Source: Bacilli bacterium
GTDB taxonomy: Bacteria > Bacillota_I > Bacilli_A > RFN20 > CAG-826
Reading direction: 5' to 3'
DNA length: 64,000 bases
NCBI GenBank assembly: GCA_017447305.1
Contig: JAFSNY010000080.1
Coordinates: 20,884-84,883 of the forward strand
Shown: positions 1 through 43,288 of the stretch, in pieces
Numbering within the stretch: position 1 is the stretch's first letter
Layout of the letters: each line of letters begins with the position of its first letter
The notes under the pieces: generated by a model
Databases searched by the model: none
What the model saw: only the letters and a program-made list of their open reading frames with translations
What the model was told of the DNA's origin: nothing
Program-made: the position numbers and the translations under genes

Positions 1-341
1 AGAAAATTGGAACAAGCACTCCACCAATTAAAACAAGTGATGGCTGGTTAGTCCTTTATCATGGAGTGTCTACTAAAGATGATGCTTACCGTGTTGGAGC
101 GATTCTTCTCGATTTAAAAGATCCTTCCAAGATTCTTGCGAGAACTAAAGATTTCTTAATGGAACCTGAAGAAGAATATGAGACGAATGGCTATTATAAC
201 GGATGTGTCTTCCCAACCGCGACTGTTCCTAAAGATGGTGATTTATACATCTACTATGGCGCGGGAGATAAAGTTATCTGCTTAGCGACATGTAAAGAAA
301 ATGAACTTCTTAAATATTTAAAGGAGGAATGCCATGAATAA
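1..341 (+). CDS. GH130 family glycoside hydrolase / beta-mannoside phosphorylase, C-terminal part. The gene starts upstream of the window, and the frame is open from nt 3.
   Basis: The translation from nt 3 (KIGTSTPPIKTSDGWLVLYHGVSTKDDAYRVGAILLDLKDPSKILART...IYYGAGDKVICLATCKENELL) matches the conserved C-terminal blade of GH130 phosphorylases. It is in frame with the listed ORF 66..341. Confidence 0.7.
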   Translation, partial: KIGTSTPPIKTSDGWLVLYHGVSTKDDAYRVGAILLDLKDPSKILARTKDFLMEPEEEYETNGYYNGCVFPTATVPKDGDLYIYYGAGDKVICLATCKENELLKYLKEECHE

Positions 342-1623
342 AAAGATTAAATTATTCGTCACCGCAGGATTAATCCTTTCTTCTGTTTCTTTGCTTTCTG
401 TCAAAAGTAATAAAACAGGAATTAAAGCGGTGGAAGGAGAATTATATTACGTTGATTTCTTCAATAATTATTTAAGAGAAGAATTCACTCTTTCTAGTGG
501 GTTTACAGGTCGAGGCAATAATGTCATCTATAAGACCGTTCAAGTCACCAAAGACTCCTTAGTGGATAAGCCAGAAGATCCAACAAGAAGAAATTATGAA
601 TTCCAAGGCTGGTATAAAGAAGAAGCTTGCTTAGAAGCGTGGAACTTTGATACTGACAAGGTCATTAAAAACACGAGAATCTTTGCCAAATGGGGAATCT
701 CTAGCAAAGAAGAGATGGTGGAACCAGAATATACACCTCCATCCACGGTGTTAGAAGAAAGTGCGGAAACTGAATATGTTCTTAATTCCGTTATGAACTT
801 TGTTCCTAATGATTTAGATCAAGTTAAGCTTCCAACAGCAGCATTAGAAAAACTCGAAGCTAATAAAAACGACGTTCTTCCACTAATGGAATATAAAGTC
901 AAAGCTAGCAAGAGCATAACTGCGACATATAACAACAATAAAATCACCATTACATGTGGCGATGAGGAGAGAGTTCTTCAAGTCAAAGATGATAGTGAAA
1001 ACTTAACTCTTTCAACTTCTTCTTATGAAACCAAAGCCAAGAATTATGAGAAAAAGGCTCTAGAAGAAGAAAGCTATCACGTCATGCTTGCTGGATCTTC
1101 CTCAATTGAATTCTGGGAATCTTCTAAAGAAGACTTAGCCCCAATCGTTAGCTATAACCACGGTATTGGTGGCACGACGATTGAAGAATGGGATGAAAAA
1201 CTCAATGCGAGACTTGTTCTCCCATATAAACCAAAGATGGTTGTTTATTACGTTGGTATTAATAACGTTATTAACTCCAAGCAAGATAAAGACACCATTT
1301 GGACAAATCTTAAGAAGTTCTTAGATGACACTCATGAGAGTCTTCCAGACACCAAGGTTCAATATATCTTGATGAATTTAATTCCTAACTACACAAGTTA
1401 TTTCGATACGATTAACGCCGTTAATGATCAAGTCATCGAATATCAAAAGAGCAATGAATCATGGTTGACTCTCATTAATCCAGGACTAGCTTTAGTCAAA
1501 GAAAACGGAGTTCCTAACGCGGCATACTTTAGAACCGATGGTCTCCATCTTTCCTATTACGGATATGTCGTTTGGGGAGAAATCGTTAAAGAATCAATCC
1601 TTAACGGACTTGAGAATATGTAA
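334..1623 (+). CDS. Secreted SGNH/GDSL-family hydrolase, a probable carbohydrate esterase, with an N-terminal signal peptide and a Listeria/Bacteroides-type repeat.
   Basis: The N-terminus MNKKIKLFVTAGLILSSVSLLS looks like a signal peptide. The C-terminal half carries SGNH motifs (MLAGSSS..., GGT, DGLHLS). YEFQGWYKEE...W resembles the Flg_new/InlB-B repeat. The start overlaps the GH130 stop. Confidence 0.7.
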   Translation: MNKKIKLFVTAGLILSSVSLLSVKSNKTGIKAVEGELYYVDFFNNYLREEFTLSSGFTGRGNNVIYKTVQVTKDSLVDKPEDPTRRNYEFQGWYKEEACLEAWNFDTDKVIKNTRIFAKWGISSKEEMVEPEYTPPSTVLEESAETEYVLNSVMNFVPNDLDQVKLPTAALEKLEANKNDVLPLMEYKVKASKSITATYNNNKITITCGDEERVLQVKDDSENLTLSTSSYETKAKNYEKKALEEESYHVMLAGSSSIEFWESSKEDLAPIVSYNHGIGGTTIEEWDEKLNARLVLPYKPKMVVYYVGINNVINSKQDKDTIWTNLKKFLDDTHESLPDTKVQYILMNLIPNYTSYFDTINAVNDQVIEYQKSNESWLTLINPGLALVKENGVPNAAYFRTDGLHLSYYGYVVWGEIVKESILNGLENM

Positions 1624-3592: not shown

Positions 3593-5476
3593 ATGGCAGA
3601 TGTAACACTACGACATGTTTACAAAGTATATGATGGAGGCGTAAGAGCGGTTAACGACTTTGATCTTGATATTAAAGACAAGGAATTCGTTGTTTTCGTT
3701 GGTCCATCTGGATGTGGTAAATCCACAACTTTAAGGATGATCGCTGGACTTGAAGAAATTACCGCTGGTCAATTATTTATTGATGGTGAATTAATGAATG
3801 AGGTTGAACCAAAAAATAGAGATATCGCGATGGTATTCCAAAGCTACGCTCTATATCCTCATATGACCGTCTATGAAAACATGGCCTTTGGATTAAAACT
3901 AAGACATACACCCAAAGATGAAATCGACCGTCGTGTTAAAGCCGCTGCAGAGATTTTGGAAATTTCCGAACTTCTTTCACGTAAGCCAAAAGCCCTTTCT
4001 GGTGGTCAAAGACAACGTGTTGCTTTAGGTAGAACGATCGTTCGTAATCCAAAAGTCTTCCTTCTTGATGAACCTTTATCTAACTTAGACGCGAAATTAC
4101 GTGTTTCAATGAGAAGTGAAATTACTAAACTCCATGAAAAACTTGAAACGACCTTTATTTATGTTACTCACGACCAAACCGAAGCGATGACGATGGGGAA
4201 TCGTATTGTCGTTATGAAAGATGGATTTATTCAACAAGCTGACACTCCTATCACCTTATTTGAAGATCCATGTAACTTATTTGTCGCGACCTTCCTTGGC
4301 TCTCCTCAAATGAATATTATCGACGCTGAATTATTCATGGATGGAAAAACCCTTAAGGCCAAACTTAATGACTGTGATGATTTAATCGTTTCTTTCCCTG
4401 ATATTAAGGCGAAACAACTCGCTGATAAGAAATATATTGGCGGTAAAGTCCTCTTAGGTATTAGACCAGAACACGTTAGACCTAACGCTGGTAATTTAAA
4501 GACCTATGTCGATGTTGTTGAACATTTAGGAGATGAATCCATCCTTTACACAAAGATGGAAAATAGAAAAGATCAATTCATCATCAAGATGCCATTTAAT
4601 TCGAAGATTCATGCGAATGAGAGCATCAGTGTTGAATTTAATATGGATCATGTTTATTTATTCGACTGCGACACTCATAAAGCGATTATGGGTATCCCAA
4701 ATGAAGATGAAATTCCAGTTACCATTCATAAGAATATGATAACGATAGGGGAACAAGAACTTACTCTTTCTGACGAATTTGTTTCTCACCTTCTCGATAG
4801 CGCATTCGACAAAGAAGTCCACCTTGCGATTAAACCAGATTATGTGACACTTGAAGAAGTTCCTAATTCCTTAAAGATTGAAGCTAAATTAGAATTTGTT
4901 GAACAAAAGACAGACTACCAAGCTTTATATTTCTCCATAAAAGGAATTGAAGGTTACTTTGCGATGAAAATAAGAAATGAAGAACAAATTAAACTTGGAA
5001 GCAAAGTTAATCTCTATCTCCCATATTTAAGACTCACCGTTTATGATGAAGACCACAACAAAGCCTTCTCAAGAGAAGTAGTGCATGAGAATCGTGGTGT
5101 TGCTAATGTCGTTAATAAGAATGGTATGACCATTATTAGAGTCGGCGATTCGACACTTGCTTATCCAGATAATGGTCAATATCCTGATGGTCAATATGAC
5201 ATTATCTTTAAACAAGATAAGTTAATGACAATCTTCTCCAAAAAACTTCTTAAGAAGGGTTATGAGAATCCAGAAATGGATGAACCTCGTAACAGAATCA
5301 AAGTCTCAGCGTATGACGAAGATGTCCTTGGCGATAAGCTTCTTACTTATGTTGAAGTCAAAGGATTTGATAATTATGCATCATTTGTTGTGAACAACAA
5401 TTTCTCCGTTTATAAGATGCCTAAATTTGAATTATTTGTCCCTGCTGATGGATTTATCTTAGAACCAAGAAACTAA
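3593..5476 (+). CDS. MalK/MsmX/UgpC-type sugar ABC transporter ATP-binding protein, with a ~260-aa C-terminal extension (additional TOBE-like repeats).
   Basis: Walker A GPSGCGKST; Q-loop; signature LSGGQRQRVALGR; Walker B FLLDEPLSNLD; H-loop VTHDQ. The canonical MalK regulatory domain ends near aa ~365, and a further ~260 aa follows. Confidence 0.9.
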   Translation: MADVTLRHVYKVYDGGVRAVNDFDLDIKDKEFVVFVGPSGCGKSTTLRMIAGLEEITAGQLFIDGELMNEVEPKNRDIAMVFQSYALYPHMTVYENMAFGLKLRHTPKDEIDRRVKAAAEILEISELLSRKPKALSGGQRQRVALGRTIVRNPKVFLLDEPLSNLDAKLRVSMRSEITKLHEKLETTFIYVTHDQTEAMTMGNRIVVMKDGFIQQADTPITLFEDPCNLFVATFLGSPQMNIIDAELFMDGKTLKAKLNDCDDLIVSFPDIKAKQLADKKYIGGKVLLGIRPEHVRPNAGNLKTYVDVVEHLGDESILYTKMENRKDQFIIKMPFNSKIHANESISVEFNMDHVYLFDCDTHKAIMGIPNEDEIPVTIHKNMITIGEQELTLSDEFVSHLLDSAFDKEVHLAIKPDYVTLEEVPNSLKIEAKLEFVEQKTDYQALYFSIKGIEGYFAMKIRNEEQIKLGSKVNLYLPYLRLTVYDEDHNKAFSREVVHENRGVANVVNKNGMTIIRVGDSTLAYPDNGQYPDGQYDIIFKQDKLMTIFSKKLLKKGYENPEMDEPRNRIKVSAYDEDVLGDKLLTYVEVKGFDNYASFVVNNNFSVYKMPKFELFVPADGFILEPRN

Positions 5477-5478
5477 TC

Positions 5479-6215
5479 CATGAAAAAAGATTTTAATCAT
5501 AATTACTATAAAGATTTATATCTAGACATGTTTCTTCCTGAACAAGAAGAGTTTTTTTACCATCATTCATTTTCATGGTGGTGGATTAGTTGAAGGGGAT
5601 AAGGGAGACGCTCATTTATTTTGCGAACATCTATGCAAGCTTGGTTATGCGGTAGTGAGTGCGAATTATAGTCTAATGCCTAAAGCCAAGTTTCCTGATT
5701 ATTTATATGATGCGGCGAATGCGGTTAAATATGTCATGGATAACATATCTAAGCATGGTAAATCGAGAGGATTTATTATCTCTGGCCAATCCGCGGGAGC
5801 GTGGATCACGTTAATGCTTTGCTTTAATAAAGATTATTTAGAATCTGTTGGTATTAACACCAAGATGATATGTGGCTGGGTGAGTGACGCTGCGCAAACG
5901 ACGAGTCATTTTAACATCTTAAAGATTGAAAAGGATCTTCATCCATGGATTCAAAGAATCGATGAATGTGCTCCTCTATATTATGTTAATGAGAAGACCA
6001 CATTTTCTCGTTTATTACTCCTTGCTTATGAAAACGATTTACCAAACCGTATTGAACAAAACCAATTATTACTATCAACAATAAAGTCGTTTGATAAGGA
6101 CGCTGATGTAGAATTCAAAATACTTAAAGGAAATCACTGTCAAGGCAGTTCAACACTTGACTCTGATGGAGAATTTGAAGTTGTAAAAATCATGGAAGTA
6201 TGGTTGGATAAATAG
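5479..6215 (+). pseudogene. Alpha/beta-hydrolase (esterase/lipase, HGGG type) interrupted by a +1 frameshift in a T7 homopolymer.
   Basis: ATG at 5479 gives MKKDFNHNYYKDLYLDMFLPEQEEFF and then a stop. The +1 frame continues ...TIIHFHGGGLVEGDKGDAHLF...GQSAGAW (oxyanion HGGG plus the GxSxG nucleophile elbow). Deleting one T from gagttttttta (~5543-5553) fuses both into a single ORF. Confidence 0.65.
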
Positions 6216-6221
6216 AAAGAA

Positions 6222-6249
6222 AAAAAGATCATCTCGCGGTGATCTTTTT
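6222..6249. terminator. Bidirectional rho-independent terminator between convergent genes
   Basis: aaaaagatca-tctcgcgg-tgatcttttt forms a ~10-bp stem flanked by A-runs and T-runs. Confidence 0.6.
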
Positions 6250-6273: not shown

Positions 6274-7335
6274 TTACTTTCTTGTTTTAAGCTTCTTTTT
6301 AGGCGCCCATTTTTCGACGATACGTGGGTAATATTCTCTCCAAATATTCTTAACGTGTTCTTTGCTGTAATAATCACTGATGACTTTGGAACCTTTGGAA
6401 TATTTTTCGTAATACTTTTTATCGCTGGCGAGCTTTTTGACTTCAGCGTCGAACTCATCAACATTTTTGCCAACCGCATAGCATTCTTGATTTTTGAAAA
6501 GAATCTCTTCATATAAATCTAAATCTCTTAATAAGACTGGTTTATAAGAATTGACCGCTTCAAGAATGGACATTGGGAATAATTCAGATAATGAAGGCAT
6601 AAAGAGCATGTCACATAAATTAAAGATTCCATTCATCTCATCACGCGGGATGATACCGATAAATTTAACGTTCTCAGGTGGATTATCCATAATCGCCTTT
6701 AATTCGTGATAACCATCAGTCATTTTTCCAAAGGAAAAACCACCCGCCCAAACGAAGACTTTATCTGGATTTCTTTTTGACACTTCAATGAAATCTAAAA
6801 CACCTTTTCTTGTTTGAACTTGACCACATCCCATGACAACAAATTTATCTAATGGAATGTCATATTTCTTTCTAAGAGCGTCTCTTTCTTCTTGGCTGAT
6901 TTTATAGAATTTTTCGTGGTCAACAAAGTTAGGAATATAAGTGATATTGTCTTTTTCAATTCCAAGTTCCATTAGTGGTGGAATAAAGGAAGGATTAACA
7001 ACGACGATTTCATCCGCTTTACGATAGGTAGAAATAACGTATTTCTTAAAGATTTTGAAAAATAGTTTTGGCATCTTTAATGAGCCATCAAGAGTGGATG
7101 GAATGAAGTGAACATAAGCGACATTAACGTGACGATTATTAAATCTCGCACGATAGGAAGGGTTGACTGTGTGCATATGATAAATATCGAAATTAGATTT
7201 TCTTGAATTAACTTCAACTTCAAAAATATCATCGCATTCTTTGACTAAAGCGAGTTGTTCGATATACGCACTTGCGACACCTTGTCCGTCAACAGAGGTG
7301 GCTTGAGACAACATATTAATTCTGATTTTTCCCAT
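6274..7335 (-). CDS. GT4-family glycosyltransferase, a candidate diacylglycerol glycosyltransferase or glycolipid synthase
   Basis: It shows the GT-B architecture; the C-terminal half has the EX7E-like region (MPSLSELFPMSILEAVNSYKPVL) typical of GT4 retaining transferases. Confidence 0.7.
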   Translation of the reverse strand: MGKIRINMLSQATSVDGQGVASAYIEQLALVKECDDIFEVEVNSRKSNFDIYHMHTVNPSYRARFNNRHVNVAYVHFIPSTLDGSLKMPKLFFKIFKKYVISTYRKADEIVVVNPSFIPPLMELGIEKDNITYIPNFVDHEKFYKISQEERDALRKKYDIPLDKFVVMGCGQVQTRKGVLDFIEVSKRNPDKVFVWAGGFSFGKMTDGYHELKAIMDNPPENVKFIGIIPRDEMNGIFNLCDMLFMPSLSELFPMSILEAVNSYKPVLLRDLDLYEEILFKNQECYAVGKNVDEFDAEVKKLASDKKYYEKYSKGSKVISDYYSKEHVKNIWREYYPRIVEKWAPKKKLKTRK

Positions 7336-7337
7336 AT

Positions 7338-7625
7338 TTACCTAATACCCATAATCCTTTCCATCTTAAATTGTTTTCTCATAAAGAGAGCAAAACTTAA
7401 TATAAACATGATGATTCCCACGACAAAGGCCATCCCAGATACACCTGCGGAAATAATATTTAATTCCGTTTGATTAAATAAATCTGGATCTTTGATGAAT
7501 TGTCTATAGACGTTATAGACGGTTATTCCTCCACCGAGAGTGAGAAGGATACCAAAGATTAAAAATAGAACCCTAAAGGCCTTATATGCACCTCTACGAC
7601 GTTTCGCTTTGTAATAATCCATCAC
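7338..7625 (-). CDS. Small 2-TM membrane protein (95 aa)
   Basis: Basic N-terminus, two TM helices and a basic C-terminus. It is tightly packed in the glycosyltransferase operon. Confidence 0.5.
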   Translation of the reverse strand: MMDYYKAKRRRGAYKAFRVLFLIFGILLTLGGGITVYNVYRQFIKDPDLFNQTELNIISAGVSGMAFVVGIIMFILSFALFMRKQFKMERIMGIR

Positions 7626-7927
7626 ATATGCTCCATCTTTAATATTTTCTCATTTTTTCTGATGCTTTTCCTTACAATTGTTAAAGCAAGGGTAATCATG
7701 ATACCTCCCATAACAATGGCGAAGAGAGCAAAGCCAAGTAAAAACGCTAATTCTTCCTGGTCAGCGTTACTTGGGTTATCAAATATAATCGCTAAAACAG
7801 CGACAATAACAAAAGCTCCTACAGCGGCAAGAGTGGGTCCAACAATAAGGAATACTCTCTTAAGTATTCTCATATCTCTCACTCTTCTTGAAGCGGTTAA
7901 ATAATCGGTAGAATAAATGTCACCCAT
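7622..7927 (-). CDS. Small 2-TM membrane protein (~101 aa), a paralogue-like partner of the 95-aa protein
   Basis: The start is chosen at MGDIYSTDY..., which avoids overlap with the upstream GT2 gene (the listed ORF extends to 7996). It has the same topology as its 95-aa neighbour. Confidence 0.45.
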   Translation of the reverse strand: MGDIYSTDYLTASRRVRDMRILKRVFLIVGPTLAAVGAFVIVAVLAIIFDNPSNADQEELAFLLGFALFAIVMGGIMITLALTIVRKSIRKNEKILKMEHM

Positions 7928-7928
7928 T

Positions 7929-8954
7929 TTAGTTTCTCTCCGTTCTATACATTTTTCTAAACGCCCAAGATAATAATACATTAAATCCACTAGCAAGAAC
8001 CATTCCTAAAGGAATCGATGCCTGATATGGAAATTTTAATAATGTTATCGAGGAGACGAAAGCAAAACAGAAAAGCATCCTAACCGCAGTGAACAACATT
8101 TCTTTAGCGAGCTTTCTAAATGGGGTTTTAGATCTATAAATCAACGAGGATACAAGGAAATATATCAATGAAACAAGGCTATATAAGAGGATGATAACAG
8201 AGTTATAGAATGTATAACCGATATGATACATATAGAAAAGTGAGCCTAATAGTAGGAAGAAACAAATGATTGATGGAATAGCGTGGATAAAAATAATCGA
8301 TTGGATTCTCACTGTATCCAAAAATGGTGAGAAGTGAGAACGAGAATTTCCATCTAGATAAACCGTTTCAATTGTGACAGTGAAGATTGGGTATTGTTTT
8401 AGTTGGAATGAGGTGATTTGATTCATCTCATATTCATAACGGCTCCCCTTAATCTTCACTAATTCATCAATATAACGGACAGGAAAACCTCTTAATCCAC
8501 ATTGGTCATCAGGGATATATTGTTTGGTTAGAAGCGAACGATCGAATTTAGACCATTCATTACCAAATCTACTTCTAAAAGGAACTTTTCGATTAAAGTG
8601 ACGGACTCCAAACACTAGTTCATCTTTATCTTTTAAGGCTTCATACACTCTAACGATATCTTTAGTGAGGTGCTGTCCATCTCCGTCCGCGGTGATGACA
8701 TATTTCGCTTCAGGAAATAGTTCATGTATTTTACTAAATCCAAGTTTTAACGCTGCGCCTTTACCTTTATTAACAGGTTGCTTTAAATACTTAACTAGAG
8801 GAGCGACCTCATTAAAAATAGAGTCGTATTCTTCGGATGAACCATCATTAACCAAAAGAACGTTAAAACCTTCGTCTAAAGCGCTTTTGACCGTTTGAAT
8901 TAATAAGGTATCCGGTTCATAACTTGGTATCAATATGACCGCATCTTTTTTCAT
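7929..8954 (-). CDS. GT2-family glycosyltransferase with a C-terminal multi-TM anchor (GtrB / polyprenyl-phosphate or processive glycolipid transferase-like)
   Basis: LIPSYEPDTLL...VNDGSSEE...ADGDGQH shows the DXD and GT-A motifs. The C-terminal ~110 aa are hydrophobic. Confidence 0.75.
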   Translation of the reverse strand: MKKDAVILIPSYEPDTLLIQTVKSALDEGFNVLLVNDGSSEEYDSIFNEVAPLVKYLKQPVNKGKGAALKLGFSKIHELFPEAKYVITADGDGQHLTKDIVRVYEALKDKDELVFGVRHFNRKVPFRSRFGNEWSKFDRSLLTKQYIPDDQCGLRGFPVRYIDELVKIKGSRYEYEMNQITSFQLKQYPIFTVTIETVYLDGNSRSHFSPFLDTVRIQSIIFIHAIPSIICFFLLLGSLFYMYHIGYTFYNSVIILLYSLVSLIYFLVSSLIYRSKTPFRKLAKEMLFTAVRMLFCFAFVSSITLLKFPYQASIPLGMVLASGFNVLLSWAFRKMYRTERN

Positions 8955-9037
8955 ACAAAAAGAGTTTACTACTTTTTTTGAAATTCTTCTATATTACGAT
9001 GCGAATATACGCCTGCATATGCTAAAATACATGCGGC

Positions 9038-9679
9038 ATGATTAAAATAAATTTCCTCGGTGATTCGATAACTTATGGCTATGCAGTTAAGGATATGAAT
9101 AACTGTTTTGTTAATATTATCGGAAGAACATTACCTGCGGAAGTAAGAAATTATGGAATAAGTGGGACAAGATTCGCTAAACAAATTGTCCCGTCTTTAT
9201 CTCCTAGCTATGATTTATATTTTGGATCACGTGTCAAAGATATGAATCCTGATGCTAATCTGGTCGTGGTGTTTGGGGGAACAAATGATTTTGGTCATGG
9301 AGACGCTCCAATTGGAAATGATAACGATAGAAGTCCAGATACTTTCTACGGTGGAACTCATCATCTGATAAACGAGTTATTAAAACATTATAAAAAGGAA
9401 CAATTACTATTTGTTTTGCCTCTTCATCGTTTATGGGAAACATGCGTCTATGGAAATGGGGAAAAAGAAGTGGCTTCACTTCCTCTATCTGGTTATGCTT
9501 CAATCATTGAGTCAGTGTGCAAAGAATATGATATTGAGACTCTTGATTATCGAAAAGAGATGGGTGAAGCAATTAATAATCCATATCTTGCAGACGGGCT
9601 CCACCTTAATGATAAAGGGCACATCAAATTTGCGTCTCTTCTCATCGAGGACATCAAACGTAAACTTTTACTGAAATAA
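9038..9679 (+). CDS. SGNH/GDSL hydrolase (esterase)
   Basis: Block I GDSITYG, block III GTNDF and block V DGLHLN are all present. Confidence 0.8.
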   Translation: MIKINFLGDSITYGYAVKDMNNCFVNIIGRTLPAEVRNYGISGTRFAKQIVPSLSPSYDLYFGSRVKDMNPDANLVVVFGGTNDFGHGDAPIGNDNDRSPDTFYGGTHHLINELLKHYKKEQLLFVLPLHRLWETCVYGNGEKEVASLPLSGYASIIESVCKEYDIETLDYRKEMGEAINNPYLADGLHLNDKGHIKFASLLIEDIKRKLLLK

Positions 9680-15925: not shown

Positions 15926-16038
15926 GTAAAATAATCCATCTATTAATTAATTGAAGAAAAACTGGTGCTTCCTCACCAGTTTTCTTCATATAATCTAAAA
16001 GATTATGCTATATTATATTTGTGGTTTGGAGGAAGCGT

Positions 16039-17473
16039 TATGAAGAGATTCATTAAAGCATTAACAATACCATTTGTTTTAGGAGCGACATTGTCCTTTT
16101 TTGTTGATTTTGAAAGTAAAGAATTTGTTATCGCTCAAGCTAGTGGCGCGCTTCCCACAACAATATCGTTAAGAGATAATACAGAAACAGAAATTAGGAA
16201 TTATTACAATAACCTTAATTCTCTTGCTGAAAGTGAACTTCAAGGTACAAATCTCTTAAAGAACTTAAAACCAATCCTTTCTAATAACCAAAGAATGTAT
16301 TCATATGATAGAAATAATGGTACAGAAATTTGGCAGTTATATGAAATCATTGATCGCGATTGGGAACTATCTCCTGCAAATGAGATAACCACTGGCACAT
16401 ATGATGAATCGACAAAAACGATTACTGGATATACATATGGAAAAAGCGCCAGTAATCCAGGAGATAATCCATATGTCAGAGCGCTTTATGTTGATCGCTC
16501 AGTAGAAAATCCGATGAAAGCTTGGGGCAACCACAATCAAACATATGGAGGAATCAATAGAGAGCACATATGGCCGAAATCGCATGGTTTTGATGAAGAA
16601 TTAAGTGATTCTGACGGAGCTAGGGGAGACCCAATGCATCTTTGGGCCGCAGATGGATATACCAATAATATTCATAATAATTATTTCTATGGGTATGTTG
16701 ATACTTCAAAAACTTATGTCGACTGCCAAGACAAGATTTCTTATTCCGTGGGCAATTATCTCGGAACATCGAAAACATTAGGAAAAGGCACAGTTTTTGA
16801 ACCTCAAGACTCAGATAAAGGCGATATCGCTCGTGCAGTATTCTACATGGTTGCAAGATATAACAACTACGCAGGCGCAACATCTGGAATTGACGCGAAC
16901 GAGCCAAACCTCATTTTAGAAAATAATCTAGATGGGAATAATGTCACTGGAACATCGACGGCGACCACATCGTTCAGCCTAGGTATTCTTCAAGACTTAC
17001 TTGAATGGAATAAATTAGATCCTGTTGATGACTTTGAAATCCATCGTAATAACTTATTATTCAATAACTATACATTTAATAGAAACCCGTTCATTGATTT
17101 CCCAGAATGGGCAGATTACATTTGGGGAACATCAGAAAATGGTGTTTATGACAACACTAGTAAGGGATTTGCTTCCCCATTAACCGACCCTATAAGCCAA
17201 AACCCATCACCTGAGCCTGGCACTAAAGACGAATCAACTACATCAGAATCAGAAAGCGAGTCAATTGTTCCAATACCAGAACCTCAAGATGAATCACCTA
17301 AATTTGATATGAAAATGATTATCATTATTGGTGCGGTCGTTGTGGCGGTCGTTATCATTTTGATTGTCATCTTTGCTAACGCAAGCAAAAAACAAAAAAA
17401 GAAAATGGTGAAGAGCGCAAAGAAGATTGTTAAAAAATCCTCTTCAAAAAAGAAGAGTTCAAGTAAAAAGTAA
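16039..17473 (+). CDS. Extracellular Endonuclease-I family nuclease with a signal peptide and a C-terminal TM anchor plus a Lys-rich tail
   Basis: REHIWPKSHGF, GDPMHLWAADGYTNNIHNNYFYG and FNRNPFIDFPEWADYIW match the Endonuclease I (EndA/Vvn) motifs. C-terminal IIIIGAVVVAVVIILIVIF is followed by KKQKKK.... The start is preceded by a ggagg RBS. Confidence 0.75.
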
Positions 17474-22497: not shown

Positions 22498-24342
22498 ATG
22501 TCTGACGATATCTTACTTCAACCATTAAAAGCATATAACACTGTGTACCGCGAAAAGTTCAAAGAAACAGCGGAACTCTTTTTCGAAGAACTCAAAAATA
22601 AAGCTGGCACTGATGTTGAACTTAATAAAGAAACAATTAAAAGATTGAAACAAGAACAAGCCGCGAGAGCGCTTCTTGCTAAGAAGAGAAATTCGCAAAA
22701 AGGTCTTAAAGGTTTTGTCATTTTTCTCATCATTCTCTTCTTTATTGCTTCTATCGCGATGGTTATCGTTGGACCAGTTCTTAAGAAGATTCCATATCTA
22801 CCTGCAATATTATCCGCGGTTGGCGCGGTTATTGTCGCAGTTGGATTCATTATCATCGTTGTTAAGATTCTTAACACGAGAATTAAGAAACTAGATGAGG
22901 AAATTGCTAAAAGGGATGCAGCAATAGCGGAATTAACCGAAGAAGCTAAACGTCAAATGGCGTCCCTCAATTCCCTATATGACTGGAATATGGCAGCATC
23001 TGTTTTCACCAGCGTTATTCCATTAACTCAATTAGATCGTATTTTCGATTCAAAGAAACACGCTTTAATGGTGCAAAAATATGGTCTTGATGGAACTAGT
23101 AATCCAGATATCTCCGCTTTATATGTTCAGTCTGGTTCTATCTTAGGAAACCCATTCCTTGTTCAAAGAGCCAAAGTCCATAAGATTATTGATAAGACAT
23201 ACACTGGTAGCTTAACAATTACGTGGACAACCATTTCTCATGACTCTAAGGGTAATTCTTATACGGTCACCCATTCTCAAACTTTAGTGGCCACTGTGAC
23301 AAGACCTGCTCCTGATTATCATCATGAAACAACACTTATCTTTGCTAATCCAGCCGCTCCTGATTTAGTGTTTTCTCGTAAGCCTCAAGGCATGACTGGC
23401 AAAAATGAAAAACAAATCTTTAAATTTGTTAGAGATCAAGAAAAAGAAATTGCTAAACTCGCTGAAAAGTCCATCTCTAGAGGTGGCAACTTCACTCCTT
23501 TGGCAAACTCTGAATTCGAAGCTTTATTCCATGCATGGAATCGTAATCATGAGCAACAATTTAGATTATTGTTCACCCCATTAGCTCAACAAAATGAAGT
23601 TGAGTTAGTAACAAAAACAGATGGATTTGGCGATGACTTTAGTTTCTATAAACATAAGATGATAAATGAAATCGTCTCTAGACATAGTCAAGCTATCGAT
23701 TATAGTGGTAACCCACTTGACTATATTGATATCGATTATGAAGCTGCGAAGCGTAAATTTGTTAATTACTGTATCTTATTCTGCAGTGGTTTATATTTCG
23801 ATTTAGCGCCTCTACTTTCTATTCCTTTATATCAACAAACCAAATCTCTTGAGTTCATCTACGGAGATGACACTCCTGAAAACTATTCATACTATGAGCA
23901 CGAATCGATGGCGAATTCCTTTGATCCAAGGATATTCGCTCACGAAGATACAACAACCGACGTTATTCTTAAGACTTCTTGTATTAGAAAAGATGGGAAG
24001 GCTGATAAGGTTAATGTCACAGCTTATTCTTATCGTGGAGAACCTAGAGTTACCTTCGTTCCAAAACTTGGAGGAGATGGGAGAACTCATAACGTTCCTG
24101 TTCACTGGACCGAATATATTCCAGTTGAAAAAGAATCGACCATGGAAGTTGCTGATACAAGCGCATCAAGGTTTGATTTTAACGATAAAATAAGGAATAA
24201 TGGTTTTGACGAGTTCATCAGAAGATATGCTACTGGTGGCGCATACTCGTTTAGACGCGGTCTACTCGCTATTTTTGGTGGGGAATCATATAGTTCCTCG
24301 TCCGATAGTGAATTAGACGGTTACTTCCGTAAGGAAGAATAA
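22498..24342 (+). CDS. Large hypothetical membrane protein (614 aa) with an N-terminal coiled-coil, two TM helices and a large C-terminal domain
   Basis: Strong RBS (aaggagtg). The TM pair is FVIFLIILFFIASIAMVIV / LPAILSAVGAVIVAVGFIIIVV. There is no recognisable domain. Confidence 0.55.
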   Translation: MSDDILLQPLKAYNTVYREKFKETAELFFEELKNKAGTDVELNKETIKRLKQEQAARALLAKKRNSQKGLKGFVIFLIILFFIASIAMVIVGPVLKKIPYLPAILSAVGAVIVAVGFIIIVVKILNTRIKKLDEEIAKRDAAIAELTEEAKRQMASLNSLYDWNMAASVFTSVIPLTQLDRIFDSKKHALMVQKYGLDGTSNPDISALYVQSGSILGNPFLVQRAKVHKIIDKTYTGSLTITWTTISHDSKGNSYTVTHSQTLVATVTRPAPDYHHETTLIFANPAAPDLVFSRKPQGMTGKNEKQIFKFVRDQEKEIAKLAEKSISRGGNFTPLANSEFEALFHAWNRNHEQQFRLLFTPLAQQNEVELVTKTDGFGDDFSFYKHKMINEIVSRHSQAIDYSGNPLDYIDIDYEAAKRKFVNYCILFCSGLYFDLAPLLSIPLYQQTKSLEFIYGDDTPENYSYYEHESMANSFDPRIFAHEDTTTDVILKTSCIRKDGKADKVNVTAYSYRGEPRVTFVPKLGGDGRTHNVPVHWTEYIPVEKESTMEVADTSASRFDFNDKIRNNGFDEFIRRYATGGAYSFRRGLLAIFGGESYSSSSDSELDGYFRKEE

Positions 24343-32584: not shown

Positions 32585-34513
32585 TTATCCGATAGCGGCT
32601 AGAACGATGGTTAATTCACGAACGGTTAATTCACCATATTTTGTTCTGCCATTTAATTCAACGCCAGCGTTTTCAAGTGCGACAACCCCAGCGGCTGGAA
32701 TTGTTTTATTCAAGAATGCATCATCTACAACAAGGAGGCCGGCATCTTTTAATGTGGAAAGGTTTTCGTTTTTAGTGTGTTCTTCGAAGTTAGTAACAAC
32801 ATCCGCCATACCTTCGCCGATAGTGTATGACTCATAATATTCTTTATTTGGATCTTCTCCATACTTAACATCTTTACCGGATAAATGAACGCTTCCTGGA
32901 GTTAACAAGAATTTCCAAACGGACTTCATCGTCCAATCATCGCGGTCATCAGACAATGGATCTTTAGTAAAGATATCATCTTCAAAGGCGTCGACGATTT
33001 TTAATTTTTTAACAGCTTTTCCTAAGTCTGAAATCTTTTCATCTTTATCCAAGTATTTGAAGAGACCAGAATCATCGGTAATAAGTGCGCCGATAGTCAT
33101 TTCTTTGAAGGCTGTATCAATTTGACTAATGTTGTAATTACTTAAGTAATTATATAAGGATTCGTTGCCATCAAGGCTATCCTTATCAATGATGTCTTTG
33201 AATGATAAGTTATTAACAGCGCTAGCGAGTTGATTAATTGGGGAATCAGCAACAAGGCTTAAAATCTTGTTTCCCTCTGTATCAATAAATTTATTGAGTG
33301 GTAATGTTTCAATTTCAGTTTTAAGGTTACCGATTTGAATGTCTGCGATAGAAGAAAGGATTTTAGAAGCGCCTAATCCATCATCACCAAGAACTTGTCT
33401 AATTGTTAAAGAATTGATTTTGTCTTGGTTTTTAAGATCGGAAATAAGCCAATCTTTAACGCTTTCAAGGAAGGTATTACCTGCAGGAATTTCACCAATT
33501 GCTTGTTCAATAGTCAAACCATTAATCTTTGCAGAAAGTTTATCTTTGTCCTTAAATTCCGAGATAGTTAAGTCTTTAAGAGCGTAGAGAATGGAGTTAG
33601 ATGGATTAACTTCTCCGAATAATTCTTCAATGGTTAAACTATTAATTCCATCATCACTAATTAACTTGCTAATGGTCCAATCTCTGATTGCGTATAAAAA
33701 TGTATTATCTGGATCAACTTCACCAATTAAATCTTCGACAGTTAAAGTGTTATAAAGTTTATCTTTATCCTTAAGGTCTTTCATTGACCAGTCTTTAATT
33801 GAGTAAAGCAAAGTGTTTTCTGAACTAATGTCACCCATGACTTGGGAGATAGTCAAACTATCAAGTTTGCTTTCATCTTTGAAATCTTCTAAACCCCAAT
33901 CCGCGATAGCGTTAAGAAGTTCATCATTAGGATCGATGTCGCCAAGAACATCTCGGAATTTCATTTGATTGATAATGTCATCGAAAAATCCTTCGGTCAT
34001 GAAGTCGGTGATTGTGTATGGGTCTTCATAATTGTATTCACCATTTTCATCTTTTGGGAAGAGGAAGAGTTTTAAAACTGCGTCAGAATAACGATCGGCG
34101 CCAATCATTGCAGCGATGGTAGCGTTATCTTTAAGGTTTTGAACCATCCAATCGCCGAGTTCTTCAAACTTAATCTTATATAGTTCTTCTTTTGGCCAAG
34201 AGTATCCGATTTGTTCTTCAAACATCTTATTGATTTCATCAACAAGCATATCGACCATTGGAGAAATTCTTGAAAGACCTCCAAGAGTGTCAATGTCATC
34301 ATTTTCGTTTGTCGCGATTGTTTTGATGATTTCAACAATGCTCTTACTTTCATATTCGTCTGTGAAGATATCTTGATTTGCCCAGTTATCAATATCGCTT
34401 CCTTTGATGATAAAACCCGCTGCAGCGATGCCACCAACGACCCCGCCTAAGCCTATAAAGATACCAAGTAATGTGAACAATAAATATCGCCACCAATAAT
34501 GTTTTTTACCCAT
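32585..34513 (-). CDS. N-terminally membrane-anchored protein carrying five tandem ~37-aa repeats
   Basis: The start is taken at MGKKHYWW after a ggagggg RBS. TM LLFTLLGIFIGLGGVVGGIAAAGFII. The repeat consensus is roughly L(L/Y)xAIxDWxIxxLKDKDKLNSLTIEELIGEVxPxNT, repeated 5 times over aa ~205-392. Confidence 0.6.
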   Translation of the reverse strand: MGKKHYWWRYLLFTLLGIFIGLGGVVGGIAAAGFIIKGSDIDNWANQDIFTDEYESKSIVEIIKTIATNENDDIDTLGGLSRISPMVDMLVDEINKMFEEQIGYSWPKEELYKIKFEELGDWMVQNLKDNATIAAMIGADRYSDAVLKLFLFPKDENGEYNYEDPYTITDFMTEGFFDDIINQMKFRDVLGDIDPNDELLNAIADWGLEDFKDESKLDSLTISQVMGDISSENTLLYSIKDWSMKDLKDKDKLYNTLTVEDLIGEVDPDNTFLYAIRDWTISKLISDDGINSLTIEELFGEVNPSNSILYALKDLTISEFKDKDKLSAKINGLTIEQAIGEIPAGNTFLESVKDWLISDLKNQDKINSLTIRQVLGDDGLGASKILSSIADIQIGNLKTEIETLPLNKFIDTEGNKILSLVADSPINQLASAVNNLSFKDIIDKDSLDGNESLYNYLSNYNISQIDTAFKEMTIGALITDDSGLFKYLDKDEKISDLGKAVKKLKIVDAFEDDIFTKDPLSDDRDDWTMKSVWKFLLTPGSVHLSGKDVKYGEDPNKEYYESYTIGEGMADVVTNFEEHTKNENLSTLKDAGLLVVDDAFLNKTIPAAGVVALENAGVELNGRTKYGELTVRELTIVLAAIG

Positions 34514-34659
34514 AATAATCCCCTCCAAAAACAAGGTTTTTTCTATGCAATATTATATACACAAACATATTTACTATTAATGCATTTTTATTCCAAATAA
34601 AAAAATTATTCAAAGAATAATCTTTTCAATTTTCATCGATTAAATCATCGTTCATTATC

Positions 34660-43250: not shown

Positions 43251-43288
43251 CTATGTATTTGAATTTTTATGCTATTATGTATGCACGT

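What the first reader, a model, noticed from the sequence alone, without database searches (positions are those of the whole stretch)
6274..8954. GT2 + GT4 glycosyltransferase operon containing two paralogous mini 2-TM proteins
Four genes are tightly packed on the minus strand, with overlaps or gaps of 1-4 nt. They are a membrane-anchored GT2 (GtrB-like), two small proteins of ~100 and 95 aa, and a GT4.

The two small proteins share the same architecture: a basic N-terminus, a TM, a short loop, a second TM and a basic C-terminus. The arrangement resembles glycolipid or lipid-linked sugar synthesis with small flippase-like or regulatory subunits (GtrA is 4-TM and ~120 aa). The duplicated 2-TM pair might form a split GtrA-like flippase. 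For a wall-less organism this is a candidate membrane glycolipid pathway.
Basis: inference. Interest (0 to 1): 0.5.

Follow-up and report, generated by a model that had tools for sequence, protein, structure and literature searches.

The report
Glycosyltransferase operon with orphan hairpin proteins
Four tightly packed genes in an uncultured rumen Bacilli genome encode two ordinary sugar-transferring enzymes with two real but very narrowly distributed two-helix membrane proteins between them. The small proteins are not a split GtrA flippase, because the first enzyme already carries its own GtrA-like membrane domain.

Summary
On the minus strand lie GT2 (8954-7929, 341 aa), S1 (7927-7622, 101 aa), S2 (7622-7338, 94 aa) and GT4 (7335-6274, 353 aa), with junctions of +1, -1 and +2 nt. 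S1 and S2 are paralogous 2-TM hairpins with both ends cytoplasmic.

They are real genes. They are kept between GT2 and GT4 in two other lineages, with pN/pS of 0.27-0.42 at saturated synonymous divergence.

They are also an orphan family. A HMMER scan of 1.84 billion proteins found only themselves, one S2 orthologue and one marginal relative.

None of 90 loci with GT2 relatives carries them, nor do seven distinct neighbourhoods of GT4 orthologues (67-90% identity). One sister lineage has S1 only.

The GT2's own C-terminal 4-TM region is a divergent GtrA/DPMS domain (49 of 70 relatives hit PF04138; hhalign probability 97%). The S family shows no similarity to GtrA, DUF2304, DPM2 or DPM3.

GT4 resembles diacylglycerol glycolipid synthases and is normally a solitary gene.

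Best reading: a lineage-specific juxtaposition of a self-sufficient polyprenyl-phosphate sugar synthase and a housekeeping glycolipid synthase. S1 and S2 are probably dispensable accessory membrane partners, which is inferred, not shown. The split-GtrA idea is not supported. Interest is low to moderate.

The parts
8310..8954 (-). GT2 catalytic (GT-A) domain, residues 1-215 of the 341-aa protein. It carries an invariant D90-G-D92 (DxD) motif.
   Evidence: PF00535 at E 4.4e-16. Best NCBIfam hits are PpgS (E 9e-16) and AglJ, both far below cutoff. A family profile hits ArnC structures 9hwj, 9bhc and 8vxh at E 1e-7, with ITADGDGQH aligned to ArnC ITLDADLQN. The motif is invariant in 11 orthologues.
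7929..8309 (-). GT2 C-terminal membrane domain, residues 216-341 plus the stop codon. It has four TM helices and is a divergent GtrA/DPMS-type domain.
   Evidence: Four hydrophobic segments, with K/R-rich 275-284 loop and C-terminus. PF04138 is hit by 49 of 70 C-terminal domains of family members, best E 9.6e-20. hhalign of the window clade against the alignment of the distant relatives' C-terminal domains, most of which hit PF04138, gives probability 97%, E 9e-11, over 129 columns. The window sequence alone does not reach Pfam.
7622..7927 (-). S1: a 101-aa two-TM helical hairpin with both ends cytoplasmic. The N-terminal motif DYLTA(S/T)RR is conserved.
   Evidence: ORF and Shine-Dalgarno sequence. 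Topology. AlphaFold2 hairpin at pLDDT 80.5. Orthologues in L020 (57% identity) and L025 (67%) sit in the same position. pN/pS is 0.27-0.39 and dN/dS is about 0.17. No family hit in Pfam, NCBIfam or PHROGs.
7338..7622 (-). S2: a 94-aa paralogue of S1 with the same topology. Its ATG overlaps the S1 stop codon by 1 nt.
   Evidence: BLASTP against S1 gives E 6e-8. The shuffle control gives z = 6.2. The orthologue P0124 in L025 is 52% identical, with pN/pS 0.42. S2 is absent from L020.
6274..7335 (-). GT4: a retaining glycosyltransferase of 353 aa with no TM segment. It resembles diacylglycerol glycolipid synthases. An E-x7-E motif (ELFPMSILE) is visible in the sequence.
   Evidence: PF00534, PF13439 and PF13692. 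NCBIfam IagA/BgsA at E 8e-44 and Dgs at E 2e-34, both below the equivalog cutoffs. No hydrophobic segment. There are 4224 homologues, many 70-90% identical.
6222..6249 (-). Terminator-like hairpin followed by a U-run, after GT4. It is shared with the convergent hydrolase gene.
   Evidence: The fold is AAAAAGAUCA-CCGCGAG-UGAUCUUUUU at -9.2 kcal/mol, z = -1.0, so it is weak. The consensus scan did not pick it up.
8955..9037 (.). An 83-nt divergent intergenic region between GT2 and the GDSL-lipase gene. It is presumed to hold the promoter.
   Evidence: Sequence. No strong sigma-70 consensus match lies inside it. This is an inference only.

Best explanation
This is a lineage-specific four-gene transcription unit. 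It was made by bringing together two glycosyltransferase genes that are independent in every other genome sampled.

**GT2.** It is a polyprenyl-phosphate sugar synthase of the DPMS/ArnC/PpgS kind. Its C-terminus is a fused, divergent GtrA/DPMS-type 4-TM domain, the architecture of type-III DPMS. It is therefore already membrane-anchored and carries the module proposed to handle or flip the lipid-linked product.

**GT4.** It is the peripheral diacylglycerol glycolipid synthase of this group of Bacilli. It is highly conserved and normally monocistronic.

**S1 and S2.** They are real, translationally coupled products of a tandem duplication. Each is a 2-TM helical hairpin whose basic N- and C-terminal helical extensions project into the cytoplasm.

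**Inferred mechanism (not shown).** The hairpins pack against the TM domain of GT2, and possibly also contact the peripheral GT4. They would act as dispensable accessory or regulatory subunits. This is analogous, not homologous, to GacJ/Rv3632 with GacI/PpgS and to DPM2/DPM3 with eukaryotic DPM synthase. They are not a flippase.
For: **Shown: gene structure.** Tight coupling and Shine-Dalgarno sequences.

**Shown: S1 and S2 are real genes.** The order GT2-S1-(S2)-GT4 and the 1-nt GT2/S1 spacing are kept in L020 and L025. This holds although synonymous sites are saturated (pS 0.63-0.81), and pN/pS is 0.27-0.42.

**Shown: GT2 identity.** PF00535, PpgS/AglJ/ArnC similarity and a DxD motif.

**Shown: the GT2 C-terminus is GtrA/DPMS-type.** 49 of 70 relatives hit PF04138, and hhalign gives probability 97%.

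**Shown: GT4 identity and independence.** IagA/BgsA/Dgs-like with no TM segment. Its orthologues at 67-90% identity are solitary in every neighbourhood looked at.

**Shown: the S family is restricted.** Four hits among 1.84e9 representative proteins.

**Precedent from the literature.**
- GacJ, a 113-aa membrane protein encoded directly downstream of gacI, forms a complex with GacI. It lowers the Km for Und-P and raises Vmax. Rv3632 does the same for PpgS (bioRxiv 10.1101/180810).
- PfDPMS has a GtrA-like TM domain that may flip its own product (PMC12992685).
- The 2-TM protein DPM2 modulates both the GT2 DPM synthase and GPI-GnT, the GPI N-acetylglucosaminyltransferase complex. It does so even where Dpm1 has its own TM domain (PMC7728079). 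That the catalytic subunit of this complex (PIG-A/Spt14) belongs to family GT4 is from my own knowledge, not from the paper.
Against: - No direct evidence links S1 or S2 to either enzyme.
- GT2 relatives in 90 loci, and GT4 orthologues in every neighbourhood looked at, do without them.
- S2 has been lost cleanly in L020.
- The S family shows no detectable similarity to DUF2304, DPM2, DPM3 or GtrA.
- The only distant relative, P0125 (E 6.8e-4), follows a peptidase M3 gene with no glycosyltransferase in view.
- Co-transcription is inferred from spacing only.
- The sugar and the lipid acceptor of both enzymes are unknown.
Confidence: 0.35

Rival explanations
1. S1 and S2 are lineage-specific small membrane proteins whose function has nothing to do with either glycosyltransferase. 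The cluster would be a fortuitous product of the rapid gene-order shuffling seen in these genomes.
For: - The family is an orphan.
- Both enzymes work without it everywhere else.
- Gene order around GT4 differs even between orthologues 82-90% identical.
- S2 was lost in L020.
- The distant homologue P0125 lies behind a peptidase gene.
- S1 and S2 evolve much faster than the enzymes.
Against: - The small genes are retained exactly between GT2 and GT4 in all three lineages that have them.
- The 1-nt GT2/S1 junction is conserved and the genes look translationally coupled.
- Tightly coupled genes in one operon are usually functionally linked (general knowledge).
Confidence: 0.33
2. S1 and S2 serve the GT4. 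They would tether or regulate the peripheral glycolipid synthase at the membrane, or handle its glycolipid product.
For: - GT4 has no TM segment.
- It lies directly downstream of S2, or of S1 in L020.
- DPM2 enhances GPI-GnT, the GPI N-acetylglucosaminyltransferase complex, in eukaryotes (PMC7728079). That its catalytic subunit (PIG-A) belongs to family GT4 is from my own knowledge.
Against: - GT4 orthologues up to 90% identical are solitary genes with no small membrane ORF beside them.
- Related enzymes such as alMGS and alDGS bind membranes on their own (established knowledge).
- The gap before GT4 is 14 nt with its own Shine-Dalgarno sequence in L020 and L025. That is looser than the GT2/S1 junction.
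Confidence: 0.12
3. S1 and S2 assemble 2+2 into a split GtrA-like 4-TM flippase for the lipid-linked sugar made by GT2.
For: - Small membrane proteins next to a polyprenyl-phosphate GT2 are often GtrA-type. The GtrA family is said to include proteins of 2 to 4 TM helices (PMC12992685).
- The two proteins are paralogues with the same topology.
Against: - The GT2 already has its own GtrA/DPMS domain.
- The S family gives probability 6% against the GtrA-like domain alignment, where the positive control gave 97%. It gives 0.2% against phage SfX GtrA.
- No member hits PF04138 at E <= 10 among the families listed.
- L020 has one hairpin only.
- The S1 TM helices contain no charged residues, and the only polar ones are two or three threonines. 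No hydrophilic path is evident.
Confidence: 0.05
4. S1 and S2 are holin-like or stress-type pore-forming hairpins. Class II holins are also 2-TM, with both ends cytoplasmic and a charged C-terminus.
For: - The architecture matches.
- There are sub-threshold Phage_holin_3_6 matches in 4 of 7 members, at 14-17 bits against a cutoff of 28.4.
Against: - No PHROG hit for any of six members.
- No lysin or phage gene is nearby.
- The weak Pfam matches scatter over dozens of unrelated TM families.
Confidence: 0.03

Closest known systems
Type-III dolichyl-phosphate mannose synthase (Pyrococcus furiosus DPMS) and bacterial GT2-GtrA fusions (PF00535 + PF04138)
   Same: An N-terminal GT-A catalytic domain with a DxD motif is followed by a 4-TM GtrA-like domain in one polypeptide. 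The family relatives of the window GT2 hit PF04138 directly. The literature proposes that this TM domain handles or flips the enzyme's own product (PMC12992685).
   Different: The TM domain of the window clade is too diverged to reach Pfam on its own. There is no PDB hit for that domain. The organism is bacterial. The sugar and lipid are unknown, and no structure could be modelled (single-sequence pLDDT 47).
GacI/GacJ (Streptococcus pyogenes) and PpgS/Rv3632 (Mycobacterium tuberculosis): a GT2 with a small DUF2304 activator
   Same: A small membrane protein gene lies immediately downstream of a PpgS-like GT2 (the best NCBIfam model for the window GT2 is PpgS). In those systems the small protein binds the GT2 and stimulates it.
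   Different: GacJ has 3 TM helices, 113 aa, and belongs to DUF2304. S1 and S2 are 2-TM and show no DUF2304 hit. NCBIfam's PpgS model is only 226 positions long and covers only the catalytic domain of the window GT2 (residues 4-217), so PpgS-type enzymes have no fused 4-TM domain. The window GT2 has one. Here the small gene is duplicated, and it is absent from GT2 orthologues.
Eukaryotic DPM synthase subunits DPM2 and DPM3 (PF07297, PF08285)
   Same: Small hydrophobic membrane proteins partner a GT2 polyprenyl-phosphate sugar synthase. DPM2 (two predicted TM regions) also enhances GPI-GnT, the GPI N-acetylglucosaminyltransferase complex; that its catalytic subunit (PIG-A) belongs to family GT4 is from my own knowledge. 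This echoes the order GT2-S-S-GT4. In yeast, the DPM2 homologue acts on a Dpm1 that has its own TM domain (PMC7728079).
   Different: There is no detectable homology: hhalign probability is 0.3% and 0.05%. Those proteins sit in the eukaryotic ER. DPM3's role is to tether a TM-less DPM1, which is not needed here.
GtrA, and the ArnE/ArnF small flippase candidates
   Same: They are small membrane proteins, paralogous pairs in the case of ArnE/ArnF. They are encoded beside ArnC/GtrB-type GT2 genes.
   Different: They have 4 TM helices each and belong to the PF04138 or EamA/SMR families. S1 and S2 have 2 TM helices each and no significant match.
IagA/BgsA (streptococcal and enterococcal LTA-anchor glycolipid synthases) and Acholeplasma laidlawii alDGS
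   Same: The window GT4 has the same GT4 fold domains. These are its best NCBIfam hits, aligned over almost full length: 12-321 of 333 and 40-322 of 332 profile positions. It is likewise a soluble or peripheral enzyme with no TM segment.
   Different: Its scores of 150 and 119 bits are far below the equivalog cutoffs of 460 and 500. Substrate and linkage therefore cannot be assigned.

Membership tests
GtrA family (PF04138), asked of S1/S2 | Sequence match to the GtrA/DPMS TM profile | tested here: not met
   PF04138 is not among the hits for S1 or S2 at E <= 1. It is not among the 25 families listed for 7 family members at E <= 10, nor at E <= 0.05. hhalign against a 51-sequence alignment of the C-terminal domains of the distant GT2 relatives, most of which hit PF04138, gives probability 6.3%; the positive control gave 97%. 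Against phage SfX GtrA it gives 0.2%.
GtrA family (PF04138), asked of S1/S2 | Four TM helices in one roughly 120-aa chain, or a 2+2 assembly with the same fold | not testable with these tools
   Each protein has 2 TM helices. No multimer prediction was available. L020 carries only one hairpin gene, so a heterodimer is not obligatory.
GtrA/DPMS TM domain (PF04138), asked of the GT2 C-terminus | Profile match plus a 4-TM topology fused to, or next to, a GT2 | tested here: met
   Four hydrophobic segments. 49 of 70 homologous C-terminal domains hit PF04138, best E 9.6e-20. hhalign of the window clade against the alignment of the distant relatives' C-terminal domains, most of which hit PF04138, gives probability 97%, E 9e-11. 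The window sequence alone is below detection.
DUF2304 / GacJ / Rv3632 (PF10066) | Pfam DUF2304 match, about 110 aa, 3 TM helices | tested here: not met
   No DUF2304 hit. There are 2 TM helices, not 3.
DUF2304 / GacJ / Rv3632 (PF10066) | Encoded directly downstream of a GacI/PpgS-type GT2 | tested here: met
   S1 starts 1 nt after the stop codon of a GT2 whose best model is PpgS. The same junction is found in L020 and L025.
DUF2304 / GacJ / Rv3632 (PF10066) | Forms a complex with the GT2 and stimulates it | not testable with these tools
   This needs co-expression, pull-down and kinetics, as in bioRxiv 10.1101/180810.
DPM2 / DPM3 | Sequence match to PF07297 or PF08285 | tested here: not met
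   hhalign of the S family against human DPM2 and DPM3 gives probability 0.3% and 0.05%. Neither family appears in the Pfam scans of S1 or S2.
Polyprenyl-phosphate glycosyltransferases (GT2: DPMS/GtrB/ArnC/PpgS) | GT-A domain (PF00535) with a DxD motif, and similarity to characterised members | tested here: met
   PF00535 at E 4e-16. D90-G-D92 is invariant. A profile hits ArnC at E 1e-7, with the DxD motif aligned. The PpgS and AglJ models match but lie far below the equivalog cutoffs, so the sugar and lipid are unassigned.
Polyprenyl-phosphate glycosyltransferases (GT2: DPMS/GtrB/ArnC/PpgS) | Transfers a sugar to a polyprenyl phosphate | not testable with these tools
   This needs a biochemical assay.
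Diacylglycerol glycolipid synthases of GT4 (IagA/BgsA, alDGS) | Score above the NCBIfam equivalog cutoff | tested here: not met
   150 bits against a cutoff of 460, and 119 bits against 500. It is a relative, not an equivalog.
Diacylglycerol glycolipid synthases of GT4 (IagA/BgsA, alDGS) | GT-B/GT4 domains, an E-x7-E motif, and no TM segment | tested here: met
   PF13439 plus PF00534. ELFPMSILE is in the sequence. There is no hydrophobic segment.

The most novel reading that the evidence does not exclude
S1 and S2 would be a convergently evolved bacterial counterpart of eukaryotic DPM2/DPM3. They would be small 2-TM hairpin subunits that dock on the GtrA-like TM domain of the polyprenyl-phosphate sugar synthase. 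They would also recruit or tune the peripheral GT4 glycolipid synthase. Lipid-carrier sugar synthesis and membrane glycolipid synthesis would then be physically coupled in one complex, in a Mollicutes-like rumen bacterium.
Probability: 0.1. Interest if true: 0.55.

Novelty: new variant of a known kind. Interest (0 to 1): 0.22.

Why it matters
Little changes if the ordinary reading holds. The two enzymes are routine members of large families, already annotated generically in the source MAG. Orphan small membrane proteins are common.

The useful result is negative and specific. The split-GtrA idea can be dropped, because the GtrA-like module is fused to the GT2.

If S1 and S2 do modulate the enzymes, they would be a third, unrelated solution to the same problem. 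GacJ/DUF2304 and DPM2/DPM3 are the other two: a small membrane partner that tunes a polyprenyl-phosphate sugar synthase. The system would also be cheap to test in E. coli membranes.

Tried and rejected
1. **Word-indexed homologue searches with S1 and S2**. They found only near-identical sequences plus P0002.
2. **Pattern scan of JGI metagenomes with the S-family alignment**. It found no relatives.
3. **AlphaFold2 of the GT2.** The single-sequence model had pLDDT 47 and was not used for fold search.
4. **PDB sequence search with the GT2 alone** **and with its C-terminal domain profile**. Neither gave a hit.
5. **Foldseek of the S1 hairpin against the PDB**. Only generic helical hairpins came up, best E 0.25. 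The ArnC TM hairpin at rank 6 is not significant.
6. **The afdb50 library** was unavailable.
7. **Weak NCBIfam matches of S1 and S2 to the TM part of the MAG1210 family**. I tested them against the MAG1210 protein in the window. hhalign gave probability 2.6%, so this was rejected as TM composition.
8. **S family as a duplicated half of the GT2 TM domain.** Rejected, with hhalign probability 0.1%.
9. **Holin idea.** Rejected; no PHROG hits.
10. **The acyltransferase/ACP cluster that follows GT2 orthologues.** I looked for it in the window. It is absent.
11. **Spurious small ORFs.** Rejected on conservation, pN/pS and Shine-Dalgarno sequences.
12. **Single-sequence hhalign against phage GtrA.** This has little power. 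The positive control, the GT2 C-terminus, also fails it. The alignment-based test is the one that counts.


Full report
**Observation.**
- GT2: 8954..7929, 341 aa.
- S1: 7927..7622, 101 aa from the ATG.
- S2: 7622..7338, 94 aa from the ATG, or 95 aa from the GTG at 7625.
- GT4: 7335..6274, 353 aa.

The junctions are a 1-nt gap, a 1-nt overlap (ATGTGATGG) and a 2-nt gap. GGAG-type ribosome-binding sites precede S1 and S2. An 83-nt divergent intergenic region lies upstream. A weak terminator-like hairpin with a U-run (6249..6222) follows GT4.

Pfam confirms GT2 (PF00535) and GT4 (PF00534/PF13439/PF13692). It finds nothing above threshold for S1 or S2. The source is an uncultured rumen 'Bacilli bacterium' MAG. 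There the four proteins are annotated as GT family 2, two hypotheticals and GT family 4.

**The small proteins are real and paralogous.** Each has two hydrophobic segments. The termini are rich in K/R and the connecting loops are acidic or neutral, so both ends are cytoplasmic. An AlphaFold2 model of S1, built from a 6-sequence alignment, has pLDDT 80.5. It is a hairpin of two long helices (3-50 and 57-100), so about 20 N-terminal and about 14 C-terminal residues extend the TM helices into the cytoplasm.

S1 and S2 align at 29% identity over 90 residues, E 6e-8. An HMM made only from S1 orthologues scores the window S2 at 25.0 bits. Segment-preserving shuffles average 3.9 +/- 3.4 bits, with a maximum of 16.2 in 1000. 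The similarity is therefore more than TM composition.

Two short metagenomic contigs carry the same arrangement.
- L025: GT2 C-terminus, then S1 (67% identity), then S2 (52%), then GT4 N-terminus.
- L020: GT2, then S1 (57%), then GT4, with no S2 and only 14 nt between S1 and GT4.

Across these lineages synonymous sites are saturated (pS 0.63-0.81). pN/pS is 0.27-0.39 for S1 and 0.42 for S2, against 0.05-0.19 for the flanking enzyme fragments. Both small genes are thus under purifying selection, but evolve fast. S2 is also dispensable in at least one lineage.

**The family is an orphan.** Word-indexed searches found only near-identical sequences and P0002. An exhaustive HMMER scan of 1.84 billion representative proteins, using a joint S1/S2 profile, returned four proteins:
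- S1 itself;
- S2 itself;
- the L025 S2 orthologue (P0124, E 2.9e-12);
- one marginal relative (P0125, E 6.8e-4).

P0125 scores 35.6 bits against 3.9 +/- 4.1 for segment shuffles, so it is probably a true distant homologue. It sits in a high-GC contig behind a peptidase M3 gene and another 2-TM ORF of the same architecture. No glycosyltransferase is visible, although the contig ends 140 nt downstream.

Pfam, NCBIfam and PHROGs give only scattered sub-threshold TM matches for seven family members. A Foldseek search of the S1 model against the PDB finds only generic helical hairpins, best E 0.25.

**The small ORFs are mostly not conserved in orthologous operons.**
- Ten species-representative genomes with GT2 orthologues (50-57% identity; rumen Bacilli or Erysipelotrichaceae MAGs) have no S-like ORF and no GT4 nearby. 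In six of the ten the GT2 is followed by an acyltransferase, an AMP-dependent ligase, a carrier protein, a phosphopantetheinyl transferase and DegV; the phosphopantetheinyl transferase is not seen in two of them, L005 and L009.
- Eighty further metagenomic loci with GT2 relatives (33-64% identity) likewise contain no S-family ORF (best hmmsearch E 0.03 in that tiny database) and no GT4.
- GT4 orthologues at 90, 88, 88, 87, 82, 74 and 67% identity are solitary genes in varied neighbourhoods, several of them BioY-GT4-MscS. None has a GT2 or a small membrane ORF beside it.

The four-gene unit is therefore a recent, clade-restricted juxtaposition. It is not a conserved pathway module. GT4 (4224 homologues, many 70-90% identical) is a core gene that works without the other three.

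**What the enzymes are.** The best NCBIfam matches for GT4 are the IagA/BgsA LTA-anchor glycolipid synthase model (E 8e-44) and the Acholeplasma-type processive diacylglycerol glucosyltransferase model (E 2e-34). Both align over nearly full length but score far below the equivalog cutoffs. GT4 has the E-x7-E motif and no TM segment. It is a diacylglycerol-glycolipid-synthase-like enzyme of unassigned specificity.

The GT2 catalytic domain matches PpgS and AglJ models weakly. As a family profile it hits ArnC structures at E 1e-7, with its invariant DGD aligned to ArnC's DAD. This places it among the polyprenyl-phosphate sugar synthases.

**The GT2 already carries a GtrA-like domain.** Its C-terminal 125 residues form four TM helices. 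The window sequence alone does not reach Pfam. However, 49 of 70 homologous C-terminal domains hit PF04138 'GtrA/DPMS transmembrane domain', best E 9.6e-20. A profile of the window clade aligns to the alignment of the distant relatives' C-terminal domains, most of which hit PF04138, with hhalign probability 97%, E 9e-11, over 129 columns.

This is the architecture of type-III DPMS. For that enzyme a 2026 crystallographic study proposes that the GtrA-like domain may flip the enzyme's own product (PMC12992685).

**Consequence for the split-GtrA hypothesis.** The GtrA-like module is already present, fused to the enzyme.
- Against the same GtrA-like domain alignment, the S family gives probability 6%.
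- Against the window clade's domain it gives 0.1%.
- Against phage SfX GtrA it gives 0.2%. The single-sequence test has little power, because the positive control also fails it.
- One lineage keeps only one hairpin.
- The S1 TM helices contain no charged residues, and the only polar ones are two or three threonines.

I rate the split-flippase idea at about 5%. A 2+2 assembly could not be modelled, because no multimer tool was available.

**Most likely mechanism (inferred).** Small membrane proteins encoded directly after a polyprenyl-phosphate GT2 have two documented roles other than flipping.
- GacJ (DUF2304, 3 TM helices) binds GacI, lowers its Km for Und-P and raises Vmax. Rv3632 does the same for PpgS (bioRxiv 10.1101/180810).
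- In eukaryotes the small hydrophobic membrane proteins DPM2 (two predicted TM regions) and DPM3 stabilise and regulate the GT2 DPM1. DPM2 also enhances GPI-GnT, the GPI N-acetylglucosaminyltransferase complex. The yeast DPM2 homologue acts on a Dpm1 that has its own TM domain (PMC7728079). That the catalytic subunit of that complex (PIG-A/Spt14) belongs to family GT4 is from my own knowledge.

S1 and S2 are not homologous to any of these. Their position, their translational coupling to GT2 and their long basic cytoplasmic helical extensions fit a dispensable accessory or regulatory partner that packs against the GT2 TM domain. I give this 0.35.

The main rival, at 0.33, is that they are unrelated lineage-specific membrane proteins caught in a fortuitous cluster. 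Their orphan distribution, the independence of both enzymes elsewhere and the context of P0125 favour it. A role directed at GT4 gets 0.12. A holin-like role gets 0.03.

**Host.** Whether the organism is wall-less cannot be decided from this window. A MAG1210-family protein (626 bits), a Mycoplasma-type family, lies at 22498-24342. Among the 27 window proteins I scanned against Pfam or NCBIfam there was no peptidoglycan gene, which proves nothing.

**Verdict.**
- Both enzymes are ordinary.
- The small proteins are a real but orphan hairpin family of unproven role.
- Novelty: at most a new variant of the known 'GT2 plus small membrane partner' theme.
- Interest: 0.22.

Noticed in passing
L002:7095-11055; the same order in L003, L004 and L007, and without the phosphopantetheinyl transferase in L005 and L009. 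L027-L029 start with the same acyltransferase.: In other rumen Bacilli, close orthologues of the window GT2 are followed by a conserved cluster. It comprises a PF01553 acyltransferase, an AMP-binding ligase, a PP-binding carrier protein, a phosphopantetheinyl transferase and DegV. It looks like a lipid-acylation module linked to a GtrA-domain GT2. It is absent from the 64-kb window.
   Followed up: partly
L047, L052, L057, L060, L064, L074, L076, L078, L081-L085, L088-L090, L093, L095, L097, L099-L101 and L104 (gene after the GT2); L041-L045 and L050: More distant GtrA-domain GT2 relatives (33-43% identity) are followed by one of two genes. Most have a single-TM protein with the N-terminal motif LDTFVI; the two that I scanned (L057, L083) are NAGPA phosphodiester glycosidases (PF09992). 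A smaller group has a multi-TM membrane protein; the one that I scanned (L042) is Rce1-like.
   Followed up: partly
L026:3702-4425: A high-GC contig (Logan DRR658084) carries two overlapping tandem ORFs of the same basic-TM-loop-TM-basic architecture after a peptidase M3 gene. The second (P0125) is the only distant relative of the S family. The first is not detectably homologous (4.8 bits).
   Followed up: partly
window 22498-24342 (+): A 614-aa MAG1210-family protein (NCBIfam NF046000, 626 bits) with an N-terminal 2-TM region. The family is named after a Mycoplasma agalactiae protein, which hints at a Mollicutes-like host.
   Followed up: partly
window 15965-17473 (+), 39985-42309 (+), 43253-45307 (+): Two Endonuclease I-domain proteins, one of them with Big_2 repeats, and a CotH kinase-like protein. 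They are probably surface or secreted nucleases of a host-associated, nutrient-scavenging organism.
   Followed up: no
window 32585-34534 (-), 53679-56366 (+): Two large ORFs (649 and 895 aa) with no NCBIfam hit at E <= 1e-10 and no Pfam hit at E <= 1e-5.
   Followed up: no
window 3593-5476 (+): A MalK/MsmK-type ABC ATPase of 627 aa. That is about 250 residues longer than usual, with an uncharacterised C-terminal extension after the TOBE/OB domains.
   Followed up: no
window 5655-6215 (+): The convergent neighbour of GT4 is a short (186-aa, GTG-start) alpha/beta-hydrolase ORF. It matches only positions 34-146 of the 210-position Abhydrolase_3 profile. It may be N-terminally truncated.
   Followed up: no
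window 9038-9679 (+) and 334-1623 (+): Two GDSL-type lipase/acylhydrolase genes lie near the cluster. One is divergent from GT2. The other is fused to a Listeria-Bacteroides repeat domain.
   Followed up: no
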